Origin: Candidatus Aegiribacteria sp. | GTDB lineage: Bacteria > Fermentibacterota > Fermentibacteria > Fermentibacterales > JCC-6 | Length of the DNA: 64,000 bases | Assembly (NCBI GenBank): GCA_030594645.1 | Contig: JAUVEU010000001.1 | Coordinates: 81,405-145,404 of the forward strand | Reading direction: 5' to 3' | Shown here: piece after piece, positions 18,556 to 37,672 of the stretch | Position numbering within the stretch: position 1 is the first letter of the stretch | Layout of the letters: each line of letters opens with the position of its first letter | Position numbers and translations under genes: made by a program | Notes under the pieces: model-generated | Database searches by the model: none | Seen by the model: only the letters and a program-made list of their open reading frames with translations | What the model was told of the DNA's origin: nothing

Positions 18556-20175
18556 ATGCGAATACTACAAATTATCGTAAAAACAATTTTAATCATTTTA
18601 CTTATTCCCTGTTTAAGCTGGGCAGCAACCTACTATGTAGATCAGAATCATCCTGAATCCAGTGATACAAATCCAGGTACAGAATCATTACCGTGGCTAA
18701 CGATTCAGAAAGCTGCCAATACGATTATTGCAGGTGACACGGTGTACATCAAAGAAGGAATCTACAATGAGCAGGTTATACCACAGAATTCAGGAAGTTC
18801 CGGAAACCACATTACATATCTTGCTTATCCTGGCGACACCATCACAATTGATGGCACCGGTATACCATTGCCGGATTGGTATGGAGTGTTTGATATCACA
18901 GGCAAAAGCTATATCAAGGTTTCAGGGTTAAGAGTAATTAACTCCACAGATTCTGGAATTCTTGCATGGGAATCAGATCATATCACAATCGAGAATAACT
19001 ATACCTATAATACGGTTTCCTCAGGCATCGGCGTCTGGATTTGCTCCAATATAATTATTGATGGCAATGAGGTTGAGCTTGCCTGTAATGATGGTATGCA
19101 GGAATGTATTACAGTGGCTGTCACCGATACTTTTGAAGTCATGAATAATCATGTTCACCATGGAGGTCCCGGGACTAATGGAGGCGAGGGTATTGATGCA
19201 AAGGATGGAAGTTCAAACGGGATAGTTTATAAAAACTATGTGCACGATATGAATTCGAACAGATTGGGTATTTATGTAGATGCGTGGGACAAACACACCT
19301 ATAATATTGATGTCTATCAGAATACTGTACATAATTGTGCTCATGGTATTACCGTAGCTTCCGAGGCAGGCGGTCTTCTTGAAAACGTCAGAATTTATAA
19401 CAATATCGCTTACGATAATGAGGAAGTTGGAATCTGGATTGCTAACTGGTCGTTGGCACCACAGCAACCAATGAAGGATATTTTTGTGATAAACAACACC
19501 CTTTACAACAATGGGAATGAATGGGGTGGCGGAATAAATGTGATGAATTCGGATGCGGAGTATGTTGTCATAAGAAACAACATTTGTAGCCAAAACCTGT
19601 CATTTCAAATCGTAATAGAAGATGCCCCGCAAAATCTCTTTGTTGACCATAATTTAATCGATGGGTTTCGTGGATATCCGGGAGAGATTTTCGGCAGCGA
19701 CAGTGTAGTAGGAGATCCTTTGTTCGTGAATTCAGCGGAAGCCGACTTTCATCTGCAGATAAATTCACCTGCCATAGATAGAGGTTCATCTGTTGATGCA
19801 CCGAACTTCGATTTTGATGGAAATACACGACCTCAAGGTGCTGGATATGATATTGGCGCTTATGAATATCTATTGACCGGTGTTGATGAACAATCCAATG
19901 GAACACAATTGATGTTCAGGCTATATCCAAATAATCCAAATCCGTTCAATTCCGCAACTAGAATATCGTACTACATTCCAAGCTCATGTTATGTGACATT
20001 AACCATCTACGATCTTTCAGGCAGGGCAGTTCAAACTTTAGTGAATGAAAGCCAAACTACCGGCAGCCGTTCAGTCGATTTTGATGGCGGTAATCTTTCC
20101 AATGGCGTTTACTTCTACCAGTTGAAAGCAGGCAATGAGTTCGTTGAGACAAGGACTATGATATTGTTACGATAG
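18556..20175 (+). CDS. Secreted right-handed parallel beta-helix (pectate-lyase-fold) protein with a T9SS C-terminal sorting domain.
   Basis: There is a signal peptide and many Asn-ladder repeats (IYNNIAYDN, VINNTLYNNGNEWGGG, IRNNICSQN). The C-terminal Por/T9SS CTD reads LYPNNPNPFNSATRISYYIP...TIYDLSGRAV...NGVYFYQLKAGN. The gene is AT-rich relative to its surroundings. Confidence 0.8.
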   Translation: MRILQIIVKTILIILLIPCLSWAATYYVDQNHPESSDTNPGTESLPWLTIQKAANTIIAGDTVYIKEGIYNEQVIPQNSGSSGNHITYLAYPGDTITIDGTGIPLPDWYGVFDITGKSYIKVSGLRVINSTDSGILAWESDHITIENNYTYNTVSSGIGVWICSNIIIDGNEVELACNDGMQECITVAVTDTFEVMNNHVHHGGPGTNGGEGIDAKDGSSNGIVYKNYVHDMNSNRLGIYVDAWDKHTYNIDVYQNTVHNCAHGITVASEAGGLLENVRIYNNIAYDNEEVGIWIANWSLAPQQPMKDIFVINNTLYNNGNEWGGGINVMNSDAEYVVIRNNICSQNLSFQIVIEDAPQNLFVDHNLIDGFRGYPGEIFGSDSVVGDPLFVNSAEADFHLQINSPAIDRGSSVDAPNFDFDGNTRPQGAGYDIGAYEYLLTGVDEQSNGTQLMFRLYPNNPNPFNSATRISYYIPSSCYVTLTIYDLSGRAVQTLVNESQTTGSRSVDFDGGNLSNGVYFYQLKAGNEFVETRTMILLR

Positions 20176-20241: not shown

Positions 20242-20664
20242 CTACTTGCCAGGATTCTTCATTCTCCCGAAGATCAGTATCGAAATCCCCGTTCCTGCAG
20301 TAAGCCCTGTTAGAGTACGAAGTATGTTGCTGCTTTCATACGCTGTTTCGCTCTGAACGACACCATCTATGATCAGAGGAATGAGAAACAGTACTCCGAT
20401 CCAGAACGGGATTCGAATGGTATTGGGATACATGAAGGAAATCCCGACAGCAAGGCCGAACCAGAAGGCGGTACACCTTGCGCAGAGTCCGCTCGTTCCC
20501 CATGGCATTTGTATGCATCTTTCAGGTAATCTGTGACAGGTAGCCGACAGAATCGGATCGAAGATCTCTCCGGTTTTTCCCAGGACAGGGAAAGCGACTG
20601 ACAGGAGGAAGAATATTGCGGCGGGGACACCGAGCAGGAGAGCAAGGGTTGTTCTACCCTTCAT
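20242..20664 (-). CDS. DUF2085 family membrane protein.
   Basis: 140 aa with a CHR...R...CARCT motif and 4 TM helices. Its ATG overlaps the stop of an 18-codon uORF inside the right repeat copy (ATGA). Confidence 0.7.
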   Translation of the reverse strand: MKGRTTLALLLGVPAAIFFLLSVAFPVLGKTGEIFDPILSATCHRLPERCIQMPWGTSGLCARCTAFWFGLAVGISFMYPNTIRIPFWIGVLFLIPLIIDGVVQSETAYESSNILRTLTGLTAGTGISILIFGRMKNPGK

Positions 20665-20795: not shown

Positions 20796-22397
20796 TTAAG
20801 GCTCGTCAATCCAGATGATCCTGGTCTGGTTGTCAGGGATGATCTCACCAAGCAGAGAAATGTATCCCGTGACAGCGTCCATCAGAGTCACGCCGACAGG
20901 TACTGATTCATGCTCCAGCATGATATCGTAACCGATATTACCAATAGCAAGGTAACCGGTGGTAACGAACCTGTAAATCATTTCAGGATCGAATGGTTCG
21001 CCGCCTATCAGCATATCTCCTATCTTCTCTCCATCTGGCATCGCCTGATTTCTGATTGCTGTAAGACCGCCGATCTCCATATCACGACGACGTCCCTGCA
21101 TTCCCGTTTCAAGGATTTCCTTGAGTTCCGCTCCGCTCAGTTCGAAAACGAAGAGATCCTCCTCAAATGGAATCGCCTGATATACAATTCTGGGCGTGAT
21201 CAGCCCTCTGGGTATTGCGGCTCTGATACCACCCCGGTTCATCAGAGCAACATCCGTATCAGTGCTCCAGAGCATTGCGTCAGCTACAAGCCTGCCCATA
21301 GGATGCTCGGCATTTCCCCTTGGTATCTGCTCGTTGGCCTCACCGATTATTTCATCCATACCGGCTTCAGCAATGATTCTGAAATTCTCTATCAAATCCG
21401 CGATTTCCTGATCAGGCCAGAATTCATCATGGAGAAGGCTTATATATTCCTCTCCTTCAGGAAGATCGTAGCCAATGAGTGTACCTGATTCGGTATCGAT
21501 AGCCAGCCTGATTCTTCCAATACCTGTTCCATTGGCGTATCCCTGAACCACAATTGTATGGTTTACCGGGCTTACCCATGGTTCTGCAAAACCCAGATGA
21601 ATATGTCCTGAGACGATAAGGTCTATTCCTGAAACCAGACAAGTCAGTTCTACATGGTTCATGCAGAAGTCCTTGGTGTATTCCTCGCCGGCGTTCCATG
21701 CGTCGTACACCCTCTCCAGATACTTGTCAGTGTCTCTGGGCTGACCCAGATGCGAAACGAGAATAATCAGATCGGCTCCCTGCTCCTCTACTTCCCGTAT
21801 GTACCGCTCAGTAGTTTCCACTTCATTGAGAAAGATGTAACTCCCGAGAAGTTCAGGCGTAACCAGTCCATATGTATCAGTCGTATTAAGTCCTATGAAA
21901 GCGATTTTCACACCTTCATAATCCAGAATTTCATATGGCAGAACAGGAGCGGGTATTTCCCCTGTGGTAGAATCCACGAAGTTGGCGCAGATCACAGGGA
22001 AATCAGCCTGTTCGGAAAGATCTATGGCATTATCTGCTCCGTCATCAAAATCATGGTTGCCGAGGGTTATCATGTCATACCCGATTGCATTCATCCATTC
22101 GATGATAAGCTTTCCACTTTCATAATTTCCGGTAGGTGTTCCCTGGTAGATATCACCAGCATCGATCAGCAGGCAGTACTCCCCGTTTTCCAGGCACTCT
22201 TCACGGACTCCATCAACATAAGCGCTTATATATGCGCCTCCGCCTATCATTGGCGGAAAATCAGGATTGAGAAACGAGGCTTCTCTTGGAACGATTCCTC
22301 CGTGTATATCATTGGTATGCAATATATTGAGATATATTGTACCGGCACTTACAGGAAGAATGATTCCCAGTAGCAGTATTGGCAGCAGTCTTTTCAC
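20796..22397 (-). CDS. Secreted bifunctional metallophosphatase / 5'-nucleotidase (UshA-like).
   Basis: Calcineurin-like phosphoesterase motifs are present (ILHTNDIHGG, GNHDFD), followed by a 5'-nucleotidase C-terminal domain. The start is called at GTG 22397 with a GGCGGGAG Shine-Dalgarno site after the upstream TAG stop, giving the signal peptide MKRLLPILLLG. Confidence 0.85.
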   Translation of the reverse strand: MKRLLPILLLGIILPVSAGTIYLNILHTNDIHGGIVPREASFLNPDFPPMIGGGAYISAYVDGVREECLENGEYCLLIDAGDIYQGTPTGNYESGKLIIEWMNAIGYDMITLGNHDFDDGADNAIDLSEQADFPVICANFVDSTTGEIPAPVLPYEILDYEGVKIAFIGLNTTDTYGLVTPELLGSYIFLNEVETTERYIREVEEQGADLIILVSHLGQPRDTDKYLERVYDAWNAGEEYTKDFCMNHVELTCLVSGIDLIVSGHIHLGFAEPWVSPVNHTIVVQGYANGTGIGRIRLAIDTESGTLIGYDLPEGEEYISLLHDEFWPDQEIADLIENFRIIAEAGMDEIIGEANEQIPRGNAEHPMGRLVADAMLWSTDTDVALMNRGGIRAAIPRGLITPRIVYQAIPFEEDLFVFELSGAELKEILETGMQGRRRDMEIGGLTAIRNQAMPDGEKIGDMLIGGEPFDPEMIYRFVTTGYLAIGNIGYDIMLEHESVPVGVTLMDAVTGYISLLGEIIPDNQTRIIWIDEP

Positions 22398-22410
22398 AAT
22401 CTGCTCCCGC

Positions 22411-23643
22411 CTAGATATCAAACACACGGCTGATGGAGAACATGAGCCTTGTGTCTGTTTCCTCTATTGTCAGGCTGTCACCGGAGGTAAAGGAAGGTAA
22501 ACCGGTTATCTCTGTCTGTTTCCACCGGTCAGGCGAGAAACTGGCTCCCATGTCCAGGTTCCAATCACCTATGTGAAAGCCCATCCCTGCAGTAAAGCTC
22601 ATTCTATCCAGTGAGCTGCTCAAGGGAGAGCGGTCGTAGCCAAATCCAAACCTGGCAACAGGTCCGCCTGGAAGCGTGTTCTCAACACCGGCGTGTACTC
22701 CCCAGGAGTTGAAAAGACCGAGATTCTCGTCCTCATACTCCATTGAGCCGTCAGGACTCCAGTAGAATTCACCAGTAAATCTGGACTTCAGACTGTTTCC
22801 GGGAATGTAAATGGAACCAAACCTTACTGTCATGGGAATGTCCAGATCATAATCGGTATCTGAGAAAGTGTTCCAGGATACAGGATCACCTGTTTCTTCC
22901 GGAGAGAAAGAAAGCGGCATCGGATATTCAACCGCTGCGCTTATGAAAACTCTCCTGTCCGGTATGAATAGGATGGAACCCCTGGTCACAATACCTGAAA
23001 CGGTTTCCTCACGTTGGGAGAGGATTCCTTCCTGCGTGGGATCAACATGCATTACTTCCCATGTTACATCTCTTGACCCCGTGATGTATCCTCCTGCAAA
23101 CCCGAAAGCAAGAACCTCGGACGGTGAAAAAGCAACTGCCAGATCAAACTCGTTCCTGATGCCGGATATCTCGAGATTTTCCTCGCCTGTTTTAACATAG
23201 GAATCGTCCCGCACAGTTCTTCCATAACTGTAAGTGAAAGTGCCTGGAACCCTCCATCCGGCGGCAAACGATAAAGCCTCTGGAAGTCCCGCAATGTTCC
23301 GGAAAGCAACTGCGGCACCTCCTGGAACGAAAACAAGGTTCTTGTTGAAAGCATATTCGGATTCACCGATTGAACTGCCGAAAATGTCATAGATCCTTCT
23401 CGTTCTTTTCTCAACAGCGTAGTCCAGACCCGCCGCGATCTCCACCTGAAGACCTTCTTCGGCAATTGCCAGAAGCGCAGGGTTTTCAAGAACCCCGAGA
23501 GCGGATACATCAAGAAAACCGCAGTTCCCCATGCCAAGAGCACTGGCTGAACCGGGCGTTCCTGTTTCACCAAGCCACATAACTTCTGGGAGCCCTGCGG
23601 TAATCGCCATTAATGAAATTATTCCTGCTGCAATGATATTCAT
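22411..23643 (-). CDS. Outer-membrane beta-barrel protein (FadL/PorV-like), hypothetical.
   Basis: 410 aa with a signal peptide, alternating beta-strand patterning and an aromatic-rich C-terminal strand (RLMFSISRVFDI). Confidence 0.55.
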   Translation of the reverse strand: MNIIAAGIISLMAITAGLPEVMWLGETGTPGSASALGMGNCGFLDVSALGVLENPALLAIAEEGLQVEIAAGLDYAVEKRTRRIYDIFGSSIGESEYAFNKNLVFVPGGAAVAFRNIAGLPEALSFAAGWRVPGTFTYSYGRTVRDDSYVKTGEENLEISGIRNEFDLAVAFSPSEVLAFGFAGGYITGSRDVTWEVMHVDPTQEGILSQREETVSGIVTRGSILFIPDRRVFISAAVEYPMPLSFSPEETGDPVSWNTFSDTDYDLDIPMTVRFGSIYIPGNSLKSRFTGEFYWSPDGSMEYEDENLGLFNSWGVHAGVENTLPGGPVARFGFGYDRSPLSSSLDRMSFTAGMGFHIGDWNLDMGASFSPDRWKQTEITGLPSFTSGDSLTIEETDTRLMFSISRVFDI

Positions 23644-23655
23644 ATTTCCTCCACC

Positions 23656-26088
23656 CTACCAGCGGAAATCAAGCTGACATCGGATGCCATAATCTGTTAC
23701 ATGATCGTTGAAATCCCTCACCGGACTGTTCGGATCACCCTCGTAATAAAAGCTGTCATCGGGATCAGGCCTGTAAAGACCGGTGCGGGGATAGAAAGTG
23801 TCCTTTCTGAGTACCCTGAGCCTGAGCTGCAGGTTATCAGACAAAATATTCTTGATGGTTACATAGAATTTGGTTCCATCTCCATCAAGGAAATCTATTC
23901 CAGTATCCTCGAACTCCCACTGACTCATACCGTCCGTGGACCATAGAGTCGTTCCACCAAGAACAGACAGATTCTCACTGAAGTTGTGTTCCCATCTCGC
24001 GGAGATGTAGCCACCGGACAGAAGCCGGTCATCACCATATCTTGGATTTGGAGTAAGTTCAACCATTCCGTACCGGAGCCTGACGTCAAAGTAGTCATGT
24101 CCGGTGGGAAGGAAAAAGGTTCTGAAGGTGAATTCCTGCGTACGCGATGTGGTTGGAATCACGTCATGCATTTTGGTTTTCTCCTGGTATTTGCATTTCA
24201 ATCTGAACCTGACAGGAAAAACAGGGCGATACTCGATCTCCCCCTGAAATCTGTAATTATCAAATCCCCATGGCAGAGAACGCCATATATCAAGATACAC
24301 TTTCGGGAATGTTATCTGCCTGCTCAACTGGAAACGGCTTTCAATGTAGACACCCTCTTCGGGCTTTGGTGTCGGCCATTCCGCAAGCTGCGAAGTAAGC
24401 GGGTCGTTGAGGTAATATGGTTTCTCAAAAACGGTATCATCGTATCTGAGCTGTTCCGCAAATCCACGGTTGTATGGATTAGTAAAGCCGATATCGTAGT
24501 GTCTCCAAATACCGAGCAGATAGAAATAGTCATTCTGCCACCTGGCCCTTGCGAGCGTGGCAATCGACTCGTTATCCTGCCGGACGAATTCTCCCTCAAG
24601 GCTGAAATTATCCAGAATTGTCTGAGCTGAGAAAGCAAGATAAGAGGATGAATTCCCTGCTGCAAGAACATCGTATTCCGGACATTCCCATGGTTGCGCA
24701 TCACCTGGAATATCCATGGTTCCTGAATCCGGAATGAGAGAATCACTGTAGGAAATATTCATGCCGCCTATACCGATCGCGGTCCCGCAGGGAAGGATTC
24801 CTCCAAGGTCAAAGAAACCGTACCCTCCATAAGTTGTTTCCTTTATCACATCAGCATATGGAGAAGTACGTGCAGAAGACATTATCAGAATATTCGGTGT
24901 TCCATCAATGTCTCTTACAGCGTCTCTTGATGCCGATGAATAGAATCCGTATCCAAGGAAAGGTCCCTCATGCATTTCCACGGCTCCACCGATCAAGGCG
25001 AACTGACGTGTTGAGGTAAGATCCGGATATAGTCCCCATGTACCGTAAGTGGAGCGGTACCAGAGCTCATCTGAATTATTCACCATCAGTCCCTGACCAA
25101 GTGATAGATTGTAATTTCCAAGTACGACCTGGTTCACAATACCGATGTTCTCCATCGATACAAAAACTTTGGCGACATCAAACCTTTGATTAAGGTCACC
25201 GAGATCCATATCCGATATCAGATCGAATCCAGCTGTGGAATTTCTTCCCCTGGAGAACCTTGTTCCACCCCGGAACCTGTCTCCAAATCCGACACGTACC
25301 CTGTGCTCCCAGCCGGTAACGTTCTGTGCTCCGAGAAGCTCTTCGTACTCGCTGTCGATTCTTTCAGCCCAGGCCACGCTGTCAGAGTCGGTATATCCTC
25401 TTTCACCGGTTTCTATGTCGTACTTCGCGGATCGAAGGCTGTTGAGCATTTCATATAATCCATCCTCATCAGATGATCTCCCGTCACCGCCATCGACAAC
25501 AACCCTGTAACCGCCGAAGAAATCCATAGAACTCAGGTCAAGTTCGCGGGTTGAAACGTAATCCCGCATATTCCTGTAGCCATAGTAACTCAGGTAATCC
25601 GCGTTTCGGAGTGAGGTAACGCTCGAAACAGGGCCAAGAGTGTTCAGTCTTCGCTCGACAGCCACCGCATCAATCAGACTTACTCTGTCCAGACTTCGGA
25701 GCTGCCACGAAGTTGCTGAATTAATCGGCAGAGGATGCAGAAGGTAATGCTCCCAGAGGTCTACAGCAGCGTCACCAGGGCCGTCCTCTGTAGCAAGTCT
25801 TTCCATTATTTCCAGTATATCGCTGGAAATTCTCCCTTCAGAAGGAGGGACAACCACGCAGTTACCGCGAAGCCACTGCAGTTCCACAGTCGTAAAACCA
25901 GGAATTTCCATAATATCGTAAATATTGAGAAGACCCCCTGTTTCATAAATGAAATCATAGAGGTCAGAGGCCTGTTGAGAATTCAATCCCTCAAGCGCCT
26001 GCAATTCCTGAAGAGATGCGGTATTCAGATCAAATCCGTTCGGGACAGACAAGCCAATAGCAACCGCCAGTATTAAACTAGAAACCAT
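23656..26088 (-). CDS. Large outer-membrane protein with two N-terminal helix-hairpin-helix (ComEA-like) motifs and a C-terminal beta-barrel-like region.
   Basis: 810 aa with a signal peptide. The HhH motifs are DLNTASLQELQALEGLNSQQASDLYDFI and PINSATSWQLRSLDRVSLIDAVAVERR. A long Gly/Tyr/Asp-rich beta region follows, ending ...RCQLDFRW. Confidence 0.6.
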   Translation of the reverse strand: MVSSLILAVAIGLSVPNGFDLNTASLQELQALEGLNSQQASDLYDFIYETGGLLNIYDIMEIPGFTTVELQWLRGNCVVVPPSEGRISSDILEIMERLATEDGPGDAAVDLWEHYLLHPLPINSATSWQLRSLDRVSLIDAVAVERRLNTLGPVSSVTSLRNADYLSYYGYRNMRDYVSTRELDLSSMDFFGGYRVVVDGGDGRSSDEDGLYEMLNSLRSAKYDIETGERGYTDSDSVAWAERIDSEYEELLGAQNVTGWEHRVRVGFGDRFRGGTRFSRGRNSTAGFDLISDMDLGDLNQRFDVAKVFVSMENIGIVNQVVLGNYNLSLGQGLMVNNSDELWYRSTYGTWGLYPDLTSTRQFALIGGAVEMHEGPFLGYGFYSSASRDAVRDIDGTPNILIMSSARTSPYADVIKETTYGGYGFFDLGGILPCGTAIGIGGMNISYSDSLIPDSGTMDIPGDAQPWECPEYDVLAAGNSSSYLAFSAQTILDNFSLEGEFVRQDNESIATLARARWQNDYFYLLGIWRHYDIGFTNPYNRGFAEQLRYDDTVFEKPYYLNDPLTSQLAEWPTPKPEEGVYIESRFQLSRQITFPKVYLDIWRSLPWGFDNYRFQGEIEYRPVFPVRFRLKCKYQEKTKMHDVIPTTSRTQEFTFRTFFLPTGHDYFDVRLRYGMVELTPNPRYGDDRLLSGGYISARWEHNFSENLSVLGGTTLWSTDGMSQWEFEDTGIDFLDGDGTKFYVTIKNILSDNLQLRLRVLRKDTFYPRTGLYRPDPDDSFYYEGDPNSPVRDFNDHVTDYGIRCQLDFRW

Positions 26089-26908
26089 AAGTCACCCCGG
26101 CCTGGTGAGTCAGGTCGAGCTGAGGATGCGTTATTACAGCGTATTCCACTGTAATACCTCTGATTGTTGTATTCAACCCTCCGGATATTGAGACCGGATT
26201 ACTCTGAACCCCTGCCAGGATGTTCACAGAGCCAAGGGGAAGAGCCTGGCCTACATGTATGCGTAAACCATTGAAATCCCTGGAGAAAGTCAATGCCGAA
26301 ATCATTCCGGTGACCGGTTCGTACCTGAGACCTGCGTCTATTCTTCTTCGGAGATATTCTCCACTTTCACCCAGTCTTGCCTGGAAAGGGTTCCTGATGG
26401 AGGCAGCGAGCATCCACCTTCTGTACATTCTAACCTGAAATCCCGCATTGACCGCGAAAGTGCTCGCGCTTCCGTACTCGGAAACACCATCAGAAATAAC
26501 AGCTCTGCAGAAAACAGGCTGGAGACCGAAAGACATATCTTTGGTAAGCATTCCGGCAAAGGTTATCGCCGCCATCTGTTCATTGTAGAGATCACCGCCG
26601 AAATAGCGAATGCTTGCTCCGCAGACCCAGGATTCACTTATCGGAAAGGCTCCATCGATTCCGTATGTTCCGAAATCCATATTCGTAAAAGGGAGCCTGC
26701 CTGATATGGTTACAGATGAAGATGTGCTTCCCGCTATGGATGCGGGGTTGAAAAGAAGCGCTCCGGTTCCATACAGCACAACTCCCGTTCCGCCCATGCC
26801 CTGCGATGTGATCCCTATTTCCATTTCCTCAAATGCCGCCCACGACTGCCCTGCAATGATCAGAAGGGCAAACAGAACCGTAGTCGTTCTCAAATACATT
26901 ATTGCCAC
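26078..26908 (-). CDS. Outer-membrane beta-barrel protein, hypothetical (PorP/PorQ-like size).
   Basis: 276 aa with a signal peptide ending SWA-AFEE, beta-strand patterning and a C-terminal GVTYGF. Confidence 0.5.
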   Translation of the reverse strand: MAIMYLRTTTVLFALLIIAGQSWAAFEEMEIGITSQGMGGTGVVLYGTGALLFNPASIAGSTSSSVTISGRLPFTNMDFGTYGIDGAFPISESWVCGASIRYFGGDLYNEQMAAITFAGMLTKDMSFGLQPVFCRAVISDGVSEYGSASTFAVNAGFQVRMYRRWMLAASIRNPFQARLGESGEYLRRRIDAGLRYEPVTGMISALTFSRDFNGLRIHVGQALPLGSVNILAGVQSNPVSISGGLNTTIRGITVEYAVITHPQLDLTHQAGVTYGF

Positions 26909-26909
26909 C

Positions 26910-27944
26910 TCAATTCAGGGGAGTTGCTACGACGAGAGTTTCAGTCGTTGAAAAGTGCTTTCCATCAGAGTCCACGCCTTCAAGGAGAAGCACATAAGGT
27001 CCGAGTGGAAGAATTTTGTTGTAATCGTCTTTTCCATCCCACTGAACAACGTCACCGGCTGGACGGGATTCCGCGAGATGAGTCACGGCTCTTCCCGATC
27101 TGTCAAAAACAGTAAGAGTAAAACGCATTCCGGCAGGACCGCCGTATTCAAGATTAACGGTTTCGCCAAGTACCGGAGCGAATGGATTACCGGTAAGAAC
27201 TGTAAGGTGAAAACCATCATAAATCGATGGCTGGTATACTTCCAGATCAGTCTGATATCTTGGAAGTAACTGGTATCCGCTATTATAAGGAGGTTCTGAA
27301 TCGTATTGCCCGCCGATGCCAAGCATGAACAGACGGGTACCGGCAGCGATATTGGAAACACTGATTCCAGTAGACTCGTTTACACGAACTGCAACTGAAG
27401 TCTGTCCGTTCCAGACGTTGAAATTGTATCCGCCCCCCGCAGACTCAGGATCATTGGCTACTGTAACCCATTGGGATAGCGAACTGTTTCCCAGAGCGAG
27501 AAGCTGACCTTCGATGCTTTCTGAAACTCCCTGATTCAAAGCCAGCTGAAGCGGCTGAGGCTCACCGGGATGATCGATGTAAACAAAATCCGAAGGTGAA
27601 TCGGGGGATATCTCGGTAAGACCGTTGTACTGCATGATCTCTCCGGTTATCCTCCATTCGTCCCCGGCTTCGATGACTCCCGGACTCGCTGAGCTGTAAG
27701 CGTATACATTTATTCCAGCTGTTTCATCCTGAACATAGAAACTCAGCCCTGTTTCGGAGAACAGCGTTCCCTCACATGTCGCGACCCCTTCTATGGTGAG
27801 GATTTCTCCAAGGTGATCTGGAATTCCATCACCGTTGAGGTCTTCTCTGGCTTCAGCAATCGAAACCGTCTGAGCACCGGCTAATCCTGCAAACAGGATT
27901 AACATCAGAACCGGGAAACTTCTTATCATCGTCTCCCCTTTCAC
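26910..27944 (-). CDS. Secreted protein with an OB-fold-like N-terminal region and a C-terminal FlgD-Ig/T9SS-type sorting domain.
   Basis: There is a signal peptide. The OB-fold-like nucleic-acid-binding pattern is GEILTIEGVATCEGTLFSETGLSFYVQDETAGINVYAY...GDEWRITGEIMQYNGLTEI. The C-terminus reads RFTLTVFDRSGRAV...VLLLEGVDSDGKHFSTTETLVV. Confidence 0.5.
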   Translation of the reverse strand: MKGETMIRSFPVLMLILFAGLAGAQTVSIAEAREDLNGDGIPDHLGEILTIEGVATCEGTLFSETGLSFYVQDETAGINVYAYSSASPGVIEAGDEWRITGEIMQYNGLTEISPDSPSDFVYIDHPGEPQPLQLALNQGVSESIEGQLLALGNSSLSQWVTVANDPESAGGGYNFNVWNGQTSVAVRVNESTGISVSNIAAGTRLFMLGIGGQYDSEPPYNSGYQLLPRYQTDLEVYQPSIYDGFHLTVLTGNPFAPVLGETVNLEYGGPAGMRFTLTVFDRSGRAVTHLAESRPAGDVVQWDGKDDYNKILPLGPYVLLLEGVDSDGKHFSTTETLVVATPLN

Positions 27945-27958
27945 AAGTGAATTAACTG

Positions 27959-29308
27959 TCAGTCAAGTTCGGAACCAAGCTCGGCATCTGCAAGGATGGC
28001 AGCTCTGGATAGAGCTTCTTCGGCACTCATTCTTCCATAGAGAGCAATCTCCACCGCCTCCGAAAGAAAAAGCCTTCCATCATACCAGAATGTCTGCTGT
28101 GGTTCGAACTGCGCGTATTCAATCTGTAGCATTACGTCTTCAAGACCGGGATACTCCACAAAGCGTTCCTGTATTTCAGGTTCCTCGATAGAACTGCGTG
28201 TAGCGGGAATATATCCGGTGGCAGCGCTCCATCTGGCCTGCTGACGAGGCTCTGTGAACCATTTGATGAACTCCCAGCCTGCTTCTATTTCATCAGGATC
28301 CGATTTAAAGAGAATAACATTCGTTCCCGCTATTATTACAGCCTGCTCCAGGTAAGCCGGAAGAGGAGCTATCCCCAGTGTAAAAACATATTCTCCATTT
28401 TCCTCCCTGCGCTGAAAGGTCTTTTCCATAAATGCAAGCGAAACCGTAGATCCCTGCACAAGACCAACGAGACCCTCCGCAAAATCGTTCTGATGTGTAT
28501 AACCGGAAGAAATCCTTGCGGAACCATCGGTATGTATCAGATCTATCATGAATTGAAGAGCCTCTATACCAGCCTGCGACGCAAACGCGGTTCTTGACCC
28601 GTCTTCAGACAGCAGAGATCCGCCACCCTGAAGAAGAAGGTTTTCGAACATACCCACACTGGGAGTGAATGCCGTTCCCCATCGATCAACATCGTCAAGC
28701 AGATCACCATCATTGTTGCCATCAACGGTAAGAGCGATCAGCAGATTGCGGTATTCGTCTCTTGTTGCTGCTGGTTCAAGGTTCAGACTGTCCATAAGCT
28801 CAACATTGTAATAGACAGCCTGCGCGCTTTTGTTGAAAGGAAAACTGTAGATTCTTCCGTCAAACGTATTATTCAGTCTGAAAACAGGGAAAAAATCGTT
28901 ATACCATCTGTCTGTAACATCCGGTGTATCAAGCTCCATGAGAGAGTCCAGAGGTACAAGGGCATTCCCTCTTATCAGCTGAGATGTCCAGGTTTCGTAT
29001 GCCTGTGCAACAACCGGGGTATCACCGGCCATGACGCTTGCCAGTATTTTCTGACAAAGGGCTCTGTAATTCCCCATGCTGACAGGAATAACTTCGATAT
29101 CCGGATGGGTAGCATTGAATTCGGCTACAAGTGAATCCTCCATGAATTCACCCAGAGGTCCGCCCATCGCGTGCCAGAACAAAACCTGAACAACACTGTC
29201 ATCGGCCTGTTCATTATTACCGCAGGCGAGCAGAATCAGGAGAAAGAAAAGTAAAAGAAAATGGTGTTTGATAAGATCAACCCCCCGAAATATCAAATTG
29301 AAACTCAT
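27959..29308 (-). CDS. ABC transporter substrate-binding lipoprotein (solute-binding protein family 1).
   Basis: 449 aa with a lipobox (LLACGNN). The SBP_bac_1-like fold is indicated by regions such as VLFWHAMGGPLGEF and FPFNKSAQAVYYN. No permease or ATPase gene is adjacent. Confidence 0.78.
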   Translation of the reverse strand: MSFNLIFRGVDLIKHHFLLLFFLLILLACGNNEQADDSVVQVLFWHAMGGPLGEFMEDSLVAEFNATHPDIEVIPVSMGNYRALCQKILASVMAGDTPVVAQAYETWTSQLIRGNALVPLDSLMELDTPDVTDRWYNDFFPVFRLNNTFDGRIYSFPFNKSAQAVYYNVELMDSLNLEPAATRDEYRNLLIALTVDGNNDGDLLDDVDRWGTAFTPSVGMFENLLLQGGGSLLSEDGSRTAFASQAGIEALQFMIDLIHTDGSARISSGYTHQNDFAEGLVGLVQGSTVSLAFMEKTFQRREENGEYVFTLGIAPLPAYLEQAVIIAGTNVILFKSDPDEIEAGWEFIKWFTEPRQQARWSAATGYIPATRSSIEEPEIQERFVEYPGLEDVMLQIEYAQFEPQQTFWYDGRLFLSEAVEIALYGRMSAEEALSRAAILADAELGSELD

Positions 29309-29363: not shown

Positions 29364-29618
29364 TCAGTCTTCCTGGCAGCACTTCCCTGATGCACAACTG
29401 TCCGGTTTGCTGTCAGATCCGCAACAGCTCGATCTTGAATTAGCATAGTCAGTTGCGTGAAATCCCGCCCCTTTGAAGATAATACCTGAACCGGTTCCTA
29501 TCAGCCGCTCTACTTCGCAGCCGCATTCAGGGCATGTTTTAATTGAATCATCACTCATCTGATGGAACTCTTCAAATTTGTGACCGCACTTTTTACATTT
29601 GTACTCATACGTTGGCAT
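29364..29618 (-). CDS. FmdB-family zinc-ribbon protein.
   Basis: The protein starts MPTYEYKCKKCGHKFE and contains CPECG, a Cys-rich tail. Confidence 0.7.
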   Translation of the reverse strand: MPTYEYKCKKCGHKFEEFHQMSDDSIKTCPECGCEVERLIGTGSGIIFKGAGFHATDYANSRSSCCGSDSKPDSCASGKCCQED

Positions 29619-29914
29619 TATTCTGATTCCTTCTTGGTTCTCTTCACAATATTATCTATCATGCTTATCGCCCCTGCAGGACATGCTGCGGCGCATGCGC
29701 CACATCCAGCACACCCCTTCTTAACGGAGGCTGCTCGATTCCTTCCAACTCTGATTCTTCCATAGTAACAGACGGATTCACATTCACCGCATCCCTTACA
29801 AAGCTCCTGTTTTACTGCAGCCCTGCGCAAAGGATGAGGTTTCCTCCAGATTCCTTTTCCGGGATAACCTTCAGCCGTATCCCGCTTGAGAATGTCCAGA
29901 ACGCCCATCTTCAA
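29618..29914 (-). CDS. 4Fe-4S dicluster ferredoxin-like protein.
   Basis: Two CxxCxxCxxxC(P) motifs are present (CKGCGECESVC and CAGCGACAAACP). Confidence 0.7.
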   Translation of the reverse strand: MKMGVLDILKRDTAEGYPGKGIWRKPHPLRRAAVKQELCKGCGECESVCYYGRIRVGRNRAASVKKGCAGCGACAAACPAGAISMIDNIVKRTKKESE

Positions 29915-30267: not shown

Positions 30268-31149
30268 ATGAAAAATTTTATCTTCATTGCTTTTATTGCT
30301 TTATCGATTTTGTCATCAGCAGGTGCCGTATCTTTATCCCCCTCTACTGAAGGTTTATCTCCGGATGATAGATCTGATGGGTCAAAAGGCGGCTCATTGA
30401 TAGCTGAGATCGCGGGACCATCCAATTGGGCACAAGTTTGGGGAGTTGCTTATCACGACGACCATAACATGCTTTATGTCAGCAGTAAACTCGATGACGA
30501 GGTAGCATACGGGGCTTACTCAGGCGGGAGGATAGTAACATGGACAGTGTTCGACAATGTTGAAGCTGTTTGCGGCCTGGGATGCTATCAGGATGATCTG
30601 CTCTTCGCATTGACCTGGAGTAATCCCCTGCATCCGGTACCATATTACCTGTATACCTGGAATCTCGATGCTTCCGGAGTACCGCTGCTTCCTGCAGATG
30701 TGTATGAACTTGGCACCCCTTTCACAGGCTCCCTGGGTGGATGTGAATGGGATGGAGAATATCTTTGGATTGTAGACAACTATACAAATTGTGATATATA
30801 CAAGTATGATGTGAGTACGCATTCAGTGATGAGTAATTGGACATACAGTGAACCGGGGGGCATTGGTATCGCATGTGTCTGGATTACGGGTGACATCAGA
30901 ATCTGGATAAGTGACTGGTACGGCGGCTACAAACTCTCGGAACATTCAGAAACCGGAGTTCTGACCGGGTTGAGTTACAGCATTATCACTAGCCCTCTCG
31001 ATATCGCGTACAAATACGATATGAATTTTGACGGTCCGGGATTTTTCGTTGGAAATTGGTTTGCAAGCACGGTAGATTTTTATGACCATTACCCGATGAC
31101 ACTGGATAGTTCTACGTGGGGCTGCATAAAAGCTGGTTTTGTTGACTAA
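30268..31149 (+). CDS. Hypothetical secreted protein.
   Basis: 293 aa with a signal peptide, rich in W/Y/G. It lies in an AT-rich island that switches to the plus strand. Confidence 0.5.
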   Translation: MKNFIFIAFIALSILSSAGAVSLSPSTEGLSPDDRSDGSKGGSLIAEIAGPSNWAQVWGVAYHDDHNMLYVSSKLDDEVAYGAYSGGRIVTWTVFDNVEAVCGLGCYQDDLLFALTWSNPLHPVPYYLYTWNLDASGVPLLPADVYELGTPFTGSLGGCEWDGEYLWIVDNYTNCDIYKYDVSTHSVMSNWTYSEPGGIGIACVWITGDIRIWISDWYGGYKLSEHSETGVLTGLSYSIITSPLDIAYKYDMNFDGPGFFVGNWFASTVDFYDHYPMTLDSSTWGCIKAGFVD

Positions 31150-31245: not shown

Positions 31246-31788
31246 ATGTTATCAGGGATTACTATTGCTATTCTTTCGCTTCTGAATATCACAGCCTGTT
31301 CTGATATTCAACATTCAGATTTGCAGCCCGGTTCAATAATTGCATTCGAAGAAAACGAATTAGAACCCACATCAGCACCCATCAATGTTGCGGATATACT
31401 TCAGGGAGTATGGCTGGTTTCATACCTCGATGATGATTTGAATCCTGTAAGGCTTGGAATTCTACTTATGGACAGCACTGAATATCAATTCATCCATTAT
31501 CCATCTGTTACGATTCCACCCTGGTACAGTTCAAGATTCAGTTTTGTCAGGAACCTGCATGGATCAGTCGAATTCGGGTATTTGCCTGAGACCGGTCAAA
31601 CAGGCTCAAATGTCTCAGCCAGACCTGATGACATACTGAGCGGGTTTAATAACCATGCTACTCTTGTTACGTGCCGGTTCGATGATGGCGAAGAATTCTA
31701 TATTATTCTGGATCTTGACGGAATGGAATTGTATTTCCATGGAATGCTGTCTGAGATTCAGCTTTATCATATTTATAAGAACATCTGA
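31246..31788 (+). CDS. Hypothetical lipoprotein.
   Basis: 180 aa with a lipobox (LLNITAC). Confidence 0.45.
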   Translation: MLSGITIAILSLLNITACSDIQHSDLQPGSIIAFEENELEPTSAPINVADILQGVWLVSYLDDDLNPVRLGILLMDSTEYQFIHYPSVTIPPWYSSRFSFVRNLHGSVEFGYLPETGQTGSNVSARPDDILSGFNNHATLVTCRFDDGEEFYIILDLDGMELYFHGMLSEIQLYHIYKNI

Positions 31789-37600: not shown

Positions 37601-37672
37601 TATGCCAAGCATGGCAAAAAATATCATGAGAAACGTGACTTTTCGCCTGACTGCAAGCTGCGGAAGATTCAT
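34622..37672 (-). CDS. Efflux RND transporter permease (HAE1/AcrB family).
   Basis: 1016 aa with 12 TM helices and two large periplasmic loops. AcrB-family conservation is evident. Confidence 0.92.
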   Translation of the reverse strand: MNLPQLAVRRKVTFLMIFFAMLGIGVFGVLNLGVDFYPEIQLPTVMVITSMRGAGPEEIETLISEVIESAVSTVEDVESINSVSSSGTSMVTIEFSSTADMKESEDRIREVLDEVKSQLPSEALDPYIFALASDNAPILELSFSSDCMSMTDLRWTVEEEIVPIIGRTQGVGHISTQGGFVRQVRVDVNPVLLSSYGLTMTHVERLLSAFGTDTPAGDLETGGLTLTLSIESGFHSVDQIRNTLVGQCAGGENILLGDIAHVYDGHEERETHTRLDGQPTIFCVIRKGPGSNTTEVCDNVERTLENIDSSYGGQIEIQIVSSFGDFIRRSMRNLFTIGILSIVAAALILFMFLRSWGASIIISLSMPLSIAATFAAMYFVGVNLNFISLAGLGLSIGMVVDNSIVVLENIHRLRERNLNLVESSIQGASEVGMAITASTLTTIAVFIPILLLPGIVGLLFRDMSLTVSFSLAVSLFVALTLIPLFSSRMRKLQSYRKTGAGNILDSAFESLEKRYSLLVEWATGHRLSVLLTTVAVFIASLFMLGFIPTEFMPTADQGRMEILISRATGTTLESSDSTARIIEEVLISAIEPADLEHIYTTLGRNTGNAALFGGTSATNEIEVRPFFSNSESRSRVMAEYEHLLREALEEIPGINVEFNAGDPLGGGWPIEIDIFGNDLDDLRETAGIVMREMEDIKGVVDLHSTLEKEIVQIAFVPNDVTLRLQNLSSADLAVELQLGLLGSNPSVLYEAGREIDIHLQIDSSFVMSREEILGLTILGSPLDVWGSFESRLIPRAIEHENQSRLATVRCGIQDRSLGSVVSDVEEMLDTLDLGDHRVVLGGETAEQRESFKGMIIAILVAGILVYMIMASQFESFLEPFIIIFLVPFAFIGVIWALLITGTTLTVTALIGVLMLIGIVVNNGIVLVDFANRQRKNGIDATEAVILAAKARIRPILMTAMTTIFAMLPLSLGTGESGGMWAPMARVVSGGLIVSTVLSLVVLPVLYSLLGRWKKVR

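What the first reader, a model, noticed from the sequence alone, without database searches (positions are those of the whole stretch)
23656..26088. Unusual architecture: tandem ComEA-like HhH motifs fused to a roughly 650 aa beta-barrel-like domain
ComEA-type HhH modules normally occur in small periplasmic or membrane-anchored competence proteins. Here two of them sit at the N-terminus of an 810 aa signal-peptide-bearing protein whose remainder has the Gly/Tyr/Asp-rich alternating pattern and C-terminal aromatic residue of a large outer-membrane barrel. This would place a DNA-binding module on, or through, an OM channel, which is reminiscent of a DNA uptake pore.
Basis: partly seen in the sequence, partly recalled or inferred. 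Interest (0 to 1): 0.55.

Follow-up and report, generated by a model that had tools for sequence, protein, structure and literature searches.

The report
HhH-fused outer-membrane barrel, DNA-acquisition operon
This gene encodes a large outer-membrane barrel with two ComEA-like helix-hairpin-helix modules on its periplasmic end, and it sits in a conserved operon with a surface DNA-binding protein and a nucleotidase, so it is probably the channel of an undescribed type of extracellular-DNA uptake system in uncultured Fermentibacteria and related phyla.

Summary
The ORF at 23656-26088 (-) encodes 810 aa. It has a short signal peptide, a Pfam-significant HHH_3 module (aa 17-75), a second degenerate HhH module (aa 118-180; hhalign 96-97%), and a confidently modelled barrel of about 24 strands (aa 186-810; pLDDT 85.6). 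The protein ends in ...LDFRW.

No Pfam or NCBIfam model and no PDB sequence matches the barrel. By fold it resembles only generic outer-membrane barrels, with ushers as the best hits.

The gene is the centre of a tight operon that is conserved in about 76 loci from Fermentibacteria, WOR-3 and Cloacimonadota, and in relatives only 24-27% identical. The order is:
- a solute-binding protein;
- a DUF5689-like protein with a HIN-200/tandem-OB DNA-binding fold and a probable T9SS C-terminal domain;
- a PorV/PorQ-family barrel;
- the HhH-barrel;
- a BamG/FadL-like barrel;
- an UshA-like 5'-nucleotidase, with EEP nucleases in distant relatives.

DUF5689 is the DNA-binding partner in the Bacteroides ddb DNA-utilisation locus and in the Riemerella transformation system.

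Best reading: this is the outer-membrane conduit of a DNA-acquisition system that lacks a TonB-dependent transporter or secretin gene in the locus. No function has been tested. HhH module 1 is acidic, so its DNA binding is not assured.

The parts
23656..26088 (-). Complete gene for the 810-aa HhH-barrel protein (includes the stop codon)
   Evidence: ORF list. Homologues at 24-95% identity. AF2 model with pLDDT 85.6.
26038..26088 (-). Short N-terminal signal-peptide-like hydrophobic segment (aa 1-17) with no basic residue
   Evidence: Sequence MVSSLILAVAIGLSVPN. Low-pLDDT helix at aa 2-12. Distant homologues have canonical signal peptides.
25849..26040 (-). HhH module 1 (aa 17-80), ComEA-type HHH_3, net charge -8
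   Evidence: Pfam HHH_3 E=1.5e-8. Profile hits to ComEA and EEPD1 structures. Charge analysis.
25738..25848 (-). Acidic helical linker between the two HhH modules (aa 81-117)
   Evidence: Helices 90-99 and 106-117 in the model. Net charge -7.
25549..25737 (-). HhH module 2 (aa 118-180). Degenerate, with no hairpin glycines, and highly conserved (LSYYGYRNMRD motif; D140 and A141 invariant)
   Evidence: hhalign against module 1: 96-97% probability, E about 1e-10. Conservation.
23659..25533 (-). Outer-membrane beta-barrel domain of about 24 strands (aa 186-810), ending in the C-terminal beta-signal ...LDFRW
   Evidence: DSSP of the AF2 model. Foldseek hits are only outer-membrane barrels, ushers best. 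Amphipathic alternation; the inferred lumen side has 30 K/R against 19 D/E.
25315..25488 (-). Acidic helical hairpin inserted between strands 1 and 2 (aa 201-258). By loop parity it lies on the extracellular or lumen side
   Evidence: Helices 211-227 and 234-254. Net charge -10. The placement is an inference from the loop-length pattern.
24361..24495 (-). Long, highly conserved loop between strands 13 and 14 (aa 532-576, NPYNRGFAEQ...PKP). Candidate constriction or partner-docking element
   Evidence: Invariant N537, P538, R541 and P563. Regional conservation 0.71.
23881..23934 (-). Most conserved segment of the protein (aa 719-736, DGMSQWEFEDTGIDFLDG), a short hairpin loop
   Evidence: Conservation 0.87. 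Invariant W724, F726 and D728.
24172..24213 (-). Strand 17 (aa 626-639) carrying a conserved basic ladder (R627, R629, K631, K633, Q635, K637) on the polar face
   Evidence: Alternation analysis and conservation.
26910..27944 (-). Upstream operon gene (344 aa). Secreted DUF5689-like protein with a tandem-OB/HIN-like DNA-binding fold and a C-terminal FlgD-Ig/T9SS-CTD-like domain
   Evidence: HMM of aa 22-242 lands on the Pfam DUF5689 regions of relatives. phmmer hits PF18942 proteins. AF2 pLDDT 90.2; Foldseek top hits are the p204/p202/MNDA/AIM2 HIN-dsDNA domains and Teb1. FlgD_ig and CHU_C hits.
26078..26908 (-). Operon gene (276 aa). PorV/PorQ-family FadL-fold outer-membrane barrel immediately upstream
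   Evidence: NCBIfam PorV_fam matches 20 of 21 family members, best E=7e-26. Adjacent in 67 of 71 loci.
22411..23643 (-). Operon gene (410 aa). BamG-like/FadL-fold outer-membrane barrel immediately downstream
   Evidence: NCBIfam BamG matches 15 of 20 members, best E=1.7e-11. The counterparts in distant loci carry Toluene_X. Adjacent in 67 of 68 loci.
20796..22427 (-). Operon gene (543 aa). Secreted UshA-like 5'-nucleotidase/metallophosphoesterase
   Evidence: Pfam Metallophos + 5_nucleotid_C. NCBIfam UshA-like. Downstream in 56 of 61 loci.
27959..29308 (-). First gene of the cassette (449 aa). Lipoprotein-type ABC solute-binding protein, weakly UgpB-like, with no adjacent permease
   Evidence: Pfam SBP_bac_8 and SBP_bac_1. 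NCBIfam UgpB at 89 bits, below cut-off. Conserved upstream in most Fermentibacteria loci and in L061 and L067.

Best explanation
The 810-aa protein is the central outer-membrane component of a conserved extracellular-DNA acquisition operon of Fermentibacteria, WOR-3, Cloacimonadota and relatives.

Proposed mechanism:
1. The upstream 344-aa protein has a HIN-like tandem-OB fold. It is exported, probably by the T9SS through its C-terminal domain, and held at the cell surface by one of the two FadL-fold barrels. This would resemble the way PorV, PorQ and BamG hold surface proteins. There it captures DNA.
2. DNA or oligonucleotides pass through the 24-stranded barrel. The inferred lumen carries a conserved excess of Arg/Lys.
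3. The two HhH modules are tethered at the periplasmic mouth. They receive the incoming nucleic acid as a built-in ComEA-like retention ratchet, or they gate the pore.
4. The periplasmic UshA-like 5'-nucleotidase, plus EEP nucleases in other lineages, converts the products to nucleosides and phosphate for import.

Shown here: the domain architecture, the barrel fold, the homology of the partner protein to DUF5689 and its HIN-like fold, the family assignments of the accessory barrels, and the conserved gene order.

Inferred only: channel activity, DNA binding by the HhH modules, the periplasmic location of the HhH modules (from the loop-length pattern), physical association of the three barrels, and nutritional rather than genetic use of the DNA.
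For: Architecture:
- HHH_3 is above the Pfam threshold, and the second module is homologous to the first.
- The AF2 model is confident and has 24 strands. Foldseek hits are only outer-membrane barrels, with the 24-stranded ushers on top.
- Turns after even-numbered strands are short and loops after odd-numbered strands are long or variable. This puts both termini on the periplasmic side.
- The polar faces of the strands carry 30 K/R against 19 D/E, with 21 conserved basic positions and an R-R-K-K-Q-K ladder on strand 17.

Context:
- Intergenic distances run from -17 to +14 nt.
- In 76 loci the PorV-like barrel is upstream in 67 of 71, the BamG-like barrel is downstream in 67 of 68, the OB protein is upstream in 57 of 64, and the nucleotidase is downstream in 56 of 61.
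- Homologues at 24-27% identity keep the order LTD+OB protein | ~292-323 aa ORF with no Pfam hit (matched by the PorV-like-barrel HMM in L002) | HhH-barrel | Toluene_X barrel | 5'-nucleotidase and/or Exo_endo_phos nucleases.
- The partner protein is DUF5689-like. Its model (pLDDT 90.2) best matches HIN-200 domains solved with dsDNA and the Teb1 tandem OB folds.

Literature:
- DUF5689 proteins are DdbD of the Bacteroides thetaiotaomicron DNA-utilisation locus, which is also HIN/p202-like (PMC12478041).
- DUF5689 is also in RA0C_RS04920, which is essential for Riemerella natural transformation. That system additionally needs an outer-membrane barrel and a separate periplasmic multi-HhH protein (PMC8459023). 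Those are the two functions fused in this protein.
- BamG and PorV show that FadL-fold barrels dock on larger barrels and hold surface proteins (PMC12611786).
Against: - There is no functional data for any member of the family.
- HhH module 1 has net charge -8 and a single basic residue (family mean -6). Module 2 has lost the hairpin glycines. HHH_3-fold proteins such as PsbU do not bind DNA (one search lists them as weak hits).
- I could not inspect model coordinates. Lumen openness, lumen charge and the position of the HhH modules (periplasmic or plugging the barrel) are inferred from the sequence pattern only.
- The three most conserved segments are long loops that may occlude the pore.
- The window operon has no nuclease, only a nucleotidase.
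- The barrel shows no detectable homology to DdbC or TonB-dependent transporters, or to any known DNA channel.
- The T9SS CTD assignment of the partner protein rests on sub-threshold hits.
Confidence: 0.55

Rival explanations
1. The protein is a scaffold rather than a channel. The barrel is plugged and serves as the membrane anchor of a surface DNA-capture and degradation complex. The HhH modules are periplasmic protein-protein interaction or anchoring domains. The degradation products (nucleosides or nucleotides) enter through the FadL-like barrel or through general porins.
For: HhH module 1 and the linker are acidic, and module 2 is degenerate. Module 2 and three long loops are the most conserved parts of the protein, which fits protein-protein interfaces or a plug. 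An acidic helical hairpin (net -10) could sit in a basic lumen. In BamG and PorV, FadL-fold barrels act as docking subunits (PMC12611786). The operon encodes a nucleotidase, so the transported species could be small.
Against: A 24-stranded barrel is much larger than an anchor needs to be. The conserved basic residues on the polar strand faces suggest a polyanion path. A ComEA-type module is invariably fused to the barrel across the whole family. Riemerella needs a barrel plus an HhH protein for DNA uptake (PMC8459023).
Confidence: 0.2
2. The locus is a dedicated natural-transformation (competence) uptake machine. The HhH-barrel replaces the PilQ secretin plus ComEA and delivers long dsDNA to ComEC for recombination, not for food.
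For: DUF5689 plus an outer-membrane barrel plus an HhH protein are all essential for transformation in Riemerella (PMC8459023). ComEA-type modules are hallmark competence parts. JGI names several homologues 'DNA uptake protein ComE-like'.
Against: The operon is consistently linked to catabolic enzymes: an UshA-like 5'-nucleotidase, EEP nucleases, and a solute-binding protein. Among the window ORFs that I scanned against Pfam there is no comEC, dprA or comF; several ORFs were not scanned. The related ddb locus is catabolic (PMC12478041). The two uses are not mutually exclusive.
Confidence: 0.15
3. The locus has nothing to do with nucleic acids. It is a T9SS-associated cargo-attachment or secretion module, or a transporter for another polyanion (polyphosphate, acidic polysaccharide), and the HhH and OB folds have been recruited for other ligands.
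For: The flanking barrels fall in the PorV/PorQ and BamG families. The partner has a CTD-like domain. The fold search of the barrel also hits the alginate and Pel exporters AlgE and PelB. The solute-binding protein is weakly UgpB-like.
Against: Six independent nucleic-acid-related domain types co-occur with the barrel across phyla: HHH_3, DUF5689/HIN-like OB, tRNA_anti-codon OB, LTD, Exo_endo_phos, and 5'-nucleotidase.
Confidence: 0.07

Closest known systems
ComEA (periplasmic competence DNA receptor; Pfam HHH_3 PF12836, TIGR01259/TIGR00426)
   Same: Module 1 matches HHH_3 above threshold, and the family profile matches ComEA structures 8dfk/8dss. The inferred location is periplasmic, where ComEA acts as a DNA-retention ratchet (established knowledge).
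   Different: ComEA proteins are small soluble or membrane-anchored proteins. Here two modules are covalently fused to a 625-aa outer-membrane barrel. NCBIfam ComEA scores are far below cut-off (20.9 against 152). Module 1 is acidic and module 2 lacks the hairpin glycines.
DdbCD of the Bacteroides thetaiotaomicron DNA-utilisation locus ddbABCDEF, and the homologous Riemerella anatipestifer RA0C_RS04915/04920 transformation genes (PMC12478041, PMC8459023)
   Same: Both have a surface DUF5689 protein with a HIN/p202-like fold encoded next to an outer-membrane barrel and nucleic-acid-degrading enzymes, in FCB-superphylum bacteria. Riemerella additionally needs a multi-HhH protein.
   Different: DdbC and RS04915 are annotated as TonB-dependent-type barrels with a carboxypeptidase-regulatory-like domain. 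The barrel here has no Plug, TonB_dep_Rec or CarboxypepD_reg match and carries fused HhH modules. It is flanked by two FadL-fold barrels. The DUF5689-like protein has a T9SS-CTD-like tail rather than a lipoprotein signal.
Chaperone-usher pore proteins FimD/PapC (24-stranded barrels)
   Same: These are the best Foldseek matches (E about 2.5e-7 to 1e-5). They have the same approximate strand number and they translocate a polymer across the outer membrane.
   Different: Sequence identity is 8-9% and TM-scores are only 0.3-0.46. There are no usher N-terminal, plug or C-terminal domains and no Pfam Usher hit. The resemblance is of general fold only.
PilQ secretin plus ComEA DNA-uptake route of competent Gram-negative bacteria
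   Same: The proposed job is the same: dsDNA crosses the outer membrane and is captured by a periplasmic HhH protein (established knowledge).
   Different: There is no secretin domain, the channel would be a monomeric barrel rather than a multimeric secretin, and the locus contains no type IV pilus genes.
SprA-PorV and BamA-BamG multi-barrel complexes of the FCB superphylum (PMC12611786)
   Same: In those complexes FadL-fold barrels of the PorV/PorQ and BamG families dock on a large barrel and hold surface-exposed proteins. The two barrels flanking this gene belong to those families.
   Different: The scores are below the curated cut-offs, so the flanking barrels are paralogues, not PorV or BamG themselves. 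The central barrel is unrelated to SprA or BamA. Physical association is only inferred.
Secreted nucleases with tandem HHH_3 modules (for example human EEPD1, PDB 9yi2, and bacterial multi-HhH EEP nucleases such as P0146)
   Same: They have tandem ComEA-type modules N-terminal to an effector domain. EEPD1 is the best PDB sequence match (E=5e-19, two stretches).
   Different: Their effector domain is an EEP nuclease, not a membrane barrel.

Membership tests
ComEA family (HHH_3 / TIGR01259 / TIGR00426) | HHH_3 helix-hairpin-helix domain detectable above the curated threshold | tested here: met
   Pfam PF12836: E=1.5e-8, 35.1 bits against cut-off 27, aa 17-75. The second copy is found only by hhalign.
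ComEA family (HHH_3 / TIGR01259 / TIGR00426) | Whole-protein match to the ComEA equivalog/subfamily models; a small protein of about 100-250 aa | tested here: not met
   TIGR01259 scores 20.9 bits against cut-off 152. TIGR00426 scores 15.8 against 53. The protein is 810 aa, and 625 aa of it are barrel.
ComEA family (HHH_3 / TIGR01259 / TIGR00426) | Sequence-independent DNA binding through the G-h-G hairpins and basic residues | not testable with these tools
   The hairpins read EGLN and PGFT in module 1 and have no glycine in module 2. Module 1 has net charge -8. EMSA is required.
Outer-membrane beta-barrel protein (BAM substrate) | N-terminal signal peptide | tested here: inconclusive
   There is a 17-residue hydrophobic N-terminus without a basic residue. 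Distant homologues have canonical signal peptides. No signal-peptide predictor was available.
Outer-membrane beta-barrel protein (BAM substrate) | Closed antiparallel barrel with an even strand number, amphipathic strands, and short periplasmic turns alternating with long external loops | tested here: met
   AF2 gives 24 strands at pLDDT 85.6. All Foldseek hits are outer-membrane barrels. Alternation analysis supports amphipathic strands. Coordinates were not inspectable, so barrel closure is taken from the fold matches.
Outer-membrane beta-barrel protein (BAM substrate) | C-terminal beta-signal ending in an aromatic residue | tested here: met
   The C-terminus is ...IRCQLDFRW. The family consensus is QLDFRW/QLDYxF.
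TonB-dependent transporter / DdbC-type DNA transporter | N-terminal plug domain, TonB box, 22-strand TonB_dep_Rec barrel (plus a CarboxypepD_reg domain in DdbC/RS04915) | tested here: not met
   There is no Plug, TonB_dep_Rec or CarboxypepD_reg hit at E<=0.1 in Pfam or NCBIfam. The barrel-only profile finds only proteins whose sole Pfam domain is PF12836. A direct comparison with a DdbC sequence was not possible.
ddb-like DNA-utilisation / Riemerella-type DNA-uptake locus | Adjacent DUF5689 (HIN/p202-like) surface DNA-binding protein | tested here: met
   The window protein itself is below the Pfam DUF5689 threshold. Its aa 22-242 HMM hits the DUF5689 regions of relatives at E 1e-35 to 1e-48. 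phmmer hits PF18942 proteins. Foldseek top hits are HIN-dsDNA complexes.
ddb-like DNA-utilisation / Riemerella-type DNA-uptake locus | Secreted nucleases encoded in the locus | tested here: inconclusive
   The window locus has only an UshA-like 5'-nucleotidase. Distant relatives carry Exo_endo_phos nucleases.
ddb-like DNA-utilisation / Riemerella-type DNA-uptake locus | Locus required for DNA depletion or transformation | not testable with these tools
   The organisms are uncultured. Genetics or heterologous expression is needed.
Chaperone-usher pore (Pfam Usher) | Usher barrel with a plug, and N- and C-terminal chaperone-binding domains | tested here: not met
   There is no Pfam Usher or PapC hit. 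Foldseek TM-scores are 0.3-0.46 at 8-9% identity.
Secretin (PilQ/GspD) | Secretin C-domain and N0/N1 domains | tested here: not met
   There is no Pfam Secretin hit, and no secretin appears among the top 50 listed Foldseek hits.

The most novel reading that the evidence does not exclude
This may be a previously unrecognised class of outer-membrane DNA translocon that uses neither type IV pili with a secretin nor TonB. A monomeric 24-stranded barrel would have covalently attached ComEA-like modules that ratchet or gate DNA at the periplasmic mouth. It would work in a three-barrel complex, flanked by PorV/PorQ-like and BamG-like subunits, which displays a T9SS-exported HIN-like DNA receptor above the pore. 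It would be the main route of eDNA entry in Fermentibacterota, WOR-3, Cloacimonadota and related FCB-group phyla.
Probability: 0.35. Interest if true: 0.85.

Novelty: new variant of a known kind. Interest (0 to 1): 0.68.

Why it matters
Extracellular DNA is a major phosphorus, nitrogen and carbon pool in sediments and anaerobic digesters, the habitats of Fermentibacteria, WOR-3 and Cloacimonadota. How most non-model phyla move DNA across the outer membrane is unknown. The two described routes are the secretin/type IV pilus machine and, since 2021-2025, the DUF5689 plus TonB-type barrel systems of Bacteroidota.

This locus keeps the DUF5689/HIN-like receptor but replaces the transporter with a different, uncharacterised barrel that carries its own ComEA-like modules. 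If it conducts DNA, three things follow:
- It defines a third architecture for outer-membrane DNA passage.
- It gives a genomic marker for DNA-foraging capacity in uncultured lineages.
- It offers a single-polypeptide system in which the ComEA-ratchet idea can be tested directly.

The fusion also supports a functional link between the barrel and HhH components that are genetically required but separate in Riemerella.

Tried and rejected
- Model coordinates are not exposed. I could not measure pore diameter or electrostatics, or see whether the HhH modules sit below or inside the barrel. I substituted strand-parity and alternation analyses.
I redid it with database homologues.
- PDB sequence searches with the single protein and with the family profile hit only the HhH region.
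- The barrel-only profile search against 5.8 billion proteins returned only family members, with no outgroup or annotated barrel family. It therefore neither linked the barrel to, nor separated it from, DdbC-type or TonB-dependent barrels beyond the absence of domain hits.
- The Rfam scan of the window found only a tRNA-Leu and no riboswitch upstream of the operon.
- The promoter and terminator scan gave no more sites than shuffled sequence. A TTGACA-18-CATATT site at 29984-29955 is only a hint.
- Literature searches for an HhH/ComEA-barrel fusion found none in the held library.
- I considered and rejected a soluble beta-sandwich repeat protein, LptD, BamA, a secretin and an usher (see the membership tests).


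Full report
**1. The observation**

The ATG at 26088 follows an in-frame TGA. A GGGGTGA motif lies 4 nt upstream, and the start overlaps the stop codon of the preceding gene by 11 nt. The N-terminus is therefore fixed, and translation is probably coupled to the upstream gene.

Pfam finds one domain, HHH_3, at aa 17-75 (E=1.5e-8, 35.1 bits against a cut-off of 27). NCBIfam finds only sub-threshold ComEA models. A family profile matches the solved ComEA structures and the tandem-HhH region of human EEPD1, and nothing else in the PDB.

A profile-profile comparison of the two segments gives 96-97% probability and E about 1e-10, so it is a real but degenerate HhH module. Its hairpin glycines are gone (LDRVSLIDA). 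Its LSYYGYRNMRD motif is nearly invariant.

**2. The barrel**

An AlphaFold2 model built on 46 homologues is confident (mean pLDDT 85.6, pTM 0.82). It is helical up to about residue 175. Then come one strand (190-200), an inserted helical hairpin (211-254) and 23 further long strands, ending at residue 809.

Foldseek against the PDB returns only transmembrane outer-membrane barrels. The 24-stranded ushers FimD and PapC rank first, followed by AlgE, SlpA, TonB-dependent receptors and MtrB. Identity is 8-10% and TM-scores are 0.15-0.46. The fold class is clear, but no solved relative exists.

Three features fit the canonical outer-membrane-protein topology:
- Connections after even-numbered strands are 2-9 residues long. 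Those after odd-numbered strands are long or variable, up to 58 residues.
- The strand number is even.
- The protein ends in ...QLDFRW.

Both termini are therefore periplasmic, which puts the HhH modules at the periplasmic mouth. This is an inference, because the coordinates could not be inspected.

The strands alternate hydrophobic and polar residues. The polar face, inferred to line the lumen, carries 30 K/R against 19 D/E. Twenty-one of its basic positions are conserved, and strand 17 carries an R-R-K-K-Q-K ladder.

The most conserved parts of the protein are three loops (aa 331-364, 532-576 and 719-736) and HhH module 2. This is unusual for an outer-membrane protein. It suggests that these loops form a constriction, a gate or a partner interface.

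**3. The family**

[quoted passage not shown] An exhaustive profile search finds 176 clusters at 50% identity with E<1e-30. A scan of species-representative genomes finds relatives in 217 species. The best 76 loci come from Candidatus Aegiribacteria, Fermentibacteria and Sabulitectum, WOR-3 and Cloacimonadota. The window is closest to Ca. Aegiribacteria (95% identity).

A barrel-only profile retrieves only proteins whose sole Pfam domain is HHH_3. The barrel therefore has no curated family, and among the complete sequences found it occurs only with the HhH N-terminus.

**4. The surroundings**

The gene is the fourth of six tightly packed minus-strand genes, with gaps of -17 to +14 nt:
- a solute-binding protein (27959-29308);
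- a 344-aa secreted protein (26910-27944);
- a 276-aa barrel (26078-26908);
- the HhH-barrel;
- a 410-aa barrel (22411-23643);
- an UshA-like 5'-nucleotidase (20796-22427).

I called ORFs in 78 related loci and searched them with iterated HMMs of the window proteins. Counting only loci with enough flanking sequence, the results were:

| Neighbour | Position | Loci |
|---|---|---|
| 276-aa barrel | immediately upstream | 67 of 71 |
| 410-aa barrel | immediately downstream | 67 of 68 |
| 344-aa-type protein | upstream | 57 of 64 |
| nucleotidase | downstream | 56 of 61 |

Most of the exceptions are ORF-calling artefacts or frameshifts.

The most distant homologues (24-27% identity, unknown phyla) keep the same order with partly different genes: LTD+OB protein | ~292-323 aa ORF with no Pfam hit (matched by the PorV-like-barrel HMM in L002) | HhH-barrel | Toluene_X (FadL) barrel | 5'-nucleotidase and/or Exo_endo_phos nucleases.

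**5. The partner proteins**

The 276-aa barrel family matches the NCBIfam PorV/PorQ family in 20 of 21 members (best E=7e-26). The 410-aa family matches BamG in 15 of 20 members (best E=1.7e-11). All scores are below the curated cut-offs, so these are paralogues of FadL-fold accessory barrels, not PorV or BamG themselves. In the T9SS and the Bacteroidota BAM complex, such barrels dock on a larger barrel and hold surface proteins (PMC12611786).

The 344-aa protein gives only weak OB-fold, DUF4131 and FlgD_ig/CHU_C hits on its own. Three further results identify it:
- An HMM of its aa 22-242 lands at E 1e-35 to 1e-48 on the segments that Pfam calls DUF5689 in the longer WOR-3 and Cloacimonadota orthologues.
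- phmmer reaches PF18942-annotated proteins directly.
- Its AF2 model (pLDDT 90.2) best matches HIN-200 domains solved with dsDNA (p204, p202, MNDA, IFI16, AIM2) and the Teb1 tandem OB folds.

The third result is the same similarity reported for DdbD, the DUF5689 subunit of the Bacteroides thetaiotaomicron DNA-utilisation locus (PMC12478041). DUF5689 is also the domain of RA0C_RS04920, which is essential for natural transformation in Riemerella anatipestifer. That system also requires an adjacent outer-membrane barrel and a separate periplasmic multi-HhH protein (PMC8459023).

The C-terminal 100 aa of the 344-aa protein resemble a T9SS sorting domain. A clear T9SS cargo lies nearby in the window at 18556-20175.

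**6. How it most likely works**

- The HIN-like protein is exported and held on the cell surface by one of the FadL-fold barrels, where it captures DNA.
- DNA or oligonucleotides pass the 24-stranded barrel along a basic path.
- The tethered HhH modules receive the nucleic acid in the periplasm, or gate the pore.
- The periplasmic nucleotidase, with nucleases in other lineages, produces nucleosides and phosphate.

The enzymes and the solute-binding protein favour nutrient acquisition. Use for transformation is not excluded.

The domain architecture, folds, homologies and synteny are shown here. Transport, DNA binding, complex formation and location are inferred.

The main caveats:
- HhH module 1 is acidic (net -8, family mean -6) with one basic residue, and the inter-module linker is also acidic (-7).
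- Module 2 lacks the hairpin glycines.
- The extracellular helical hairpin is acidic (-10).
- The conserved loops may plug the lumen.
- The window operon has no nuclease.

An alternative reading is that the acidic N-terminal parts act as a DNA-mimicking plug of a basic lumen. That is speculation.

**7. Comparison with known systems, and novelty**

In its logic the system is closest to DdbCD and the Riemerella machinery: a DUF5689 receptor, an outer-membrane barrel, nucleic-acid enzymes and an HhH function. It fails the membership test for the transporter, because it has no plug, TonB-dependent-barrel or carboxypeptidase-regulatory domain. It is not a ComEA family member as a whole protein, and it is not an usher or a secretin.

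I found no paper in the held library that describes an HhH-barrel fusion.

I file it as a new variant of a known kind, the DUF5689-type DNA-acquisition locus, built around an uncharacterised barrel family. The more novel reading is a locus without TonB-dependent-transporter or secretin genes, encoding a self-ratcheting DNA translocon in a three-barrel complex. I give that a probability of about 0.35.

**8. Limits**

- No DdbC sequence was available for direct comparison.
- The signal-peptide call is by eye.
- The iterated HMMs used for synteny could drift through shared C-terminal domains. I controlled for this by searching the N- and C-terminal parts of the 344-aa protein separately.

Noticed in passing
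window 18556-20175 (+): A 539-aa secreted right-handed beta-helix protein (Beta_helix/NosD/pectate-lyase-like, with a choice-of-anchor Q domain) carries a T9SS type A sorting domain above threshold. This shows that the organism uses type IX secretion.
   Followed up: partly
window 27959-29308 (-): A lipoprotein-type ABC solute-binding protein (weakly UgpB-like, 89 bits against cut-off 411) heads the cassette. It has no permease or ATPase gene nearby. It is conserved upstream in most Fermentibacteria loci and in two more distant loci, L061 and L067. Its ligand is unknown; a phosphorylated sugar or a nucleotide product is possible.
   Followed up: partly
window 29364-29914 (-), site at 29984-29955: A 4Fe-4S ferredoxin-like ORF (98 aa) and a Zn-ribbon ORF (84 aa) lie directly upstream of the cassette. 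The best sigma-70-like match of the region (TTGACA-18-CATATT) precedes them, so transcription of the cassette may start here. The scan was not better than shuffled sequence.
   Followed up: no
window 47970-49217 (-): A single 415-aa ORF combines a TatD-type DNase domain (starting at profile position 33) with a radical-SAM domain. It overlaps the KsgA/RsmA-like ORF at 47155-48114 by about 145 nt. This is either an unusual fusion or a start-codon or ORF-calling artefact.
   Followed up: no
window 14299-15627 (-): A HipA-type toxin kinase (HipA_C + Couple_hipA) sits between housekeeping genes. No HipB partner was looked for.
   Followed up: no
window 32215-38763 (-): A complete RND efflux operon with two HlyD-type adaptor genes flanking the AcrB-type pump and an OEP/TolC-type outer-membrane factor.
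   Followed up: no
window 45332-47158 (-); 30268-31149 (+); 31246-31788 (+); 20242-20664 (-): Four ORFs have no Pfam or NCBIfam match: one of 608 aa, two putative secreted or lipoproteins of 293 and 180 aa just upstream of the cassette on the other strand, and a 140-aa membrane protein just downstream of the nucleotidase.
   Followed up: no
P0122 (1251 aa), P0060, P0135 (relatives, not in the window): The family has architectural variants. P0122 has an N-terminal extension of about 430 aa, partly TPR-like by eye (not tested against Pfam), before the HhH modules. P0060 has a 24-residue insertion inside the first HhH hairpin. High-GC members have long Ala/Pro-rich leaders.
   Followed up: no
L061, L064, L067, L068 (WOR-3/Cloacimonadota loci), upstream gene: In these lineages the DNA-receptor gene is 1130-1160 aa long. 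It contains two or three copies of the DUF5689-like module, plus Big_5 Ig domains in at least L061. This implies a multivalent surface DNA binder.
   Followed up: partly
L002 1-1764 (-): In one distant locus a CarboxypepD_reg+Plug+TonB_dep_Rec transporter is encoded divergently just upstream of the cassette. It could be a DdbC-like transporter coexisting with the HhH-barrel, or a coincidence.
   Followed up: no
window 61145-62539 (-): A 464-aa protein with DUF3943, of unknown function.
   Followed up: no
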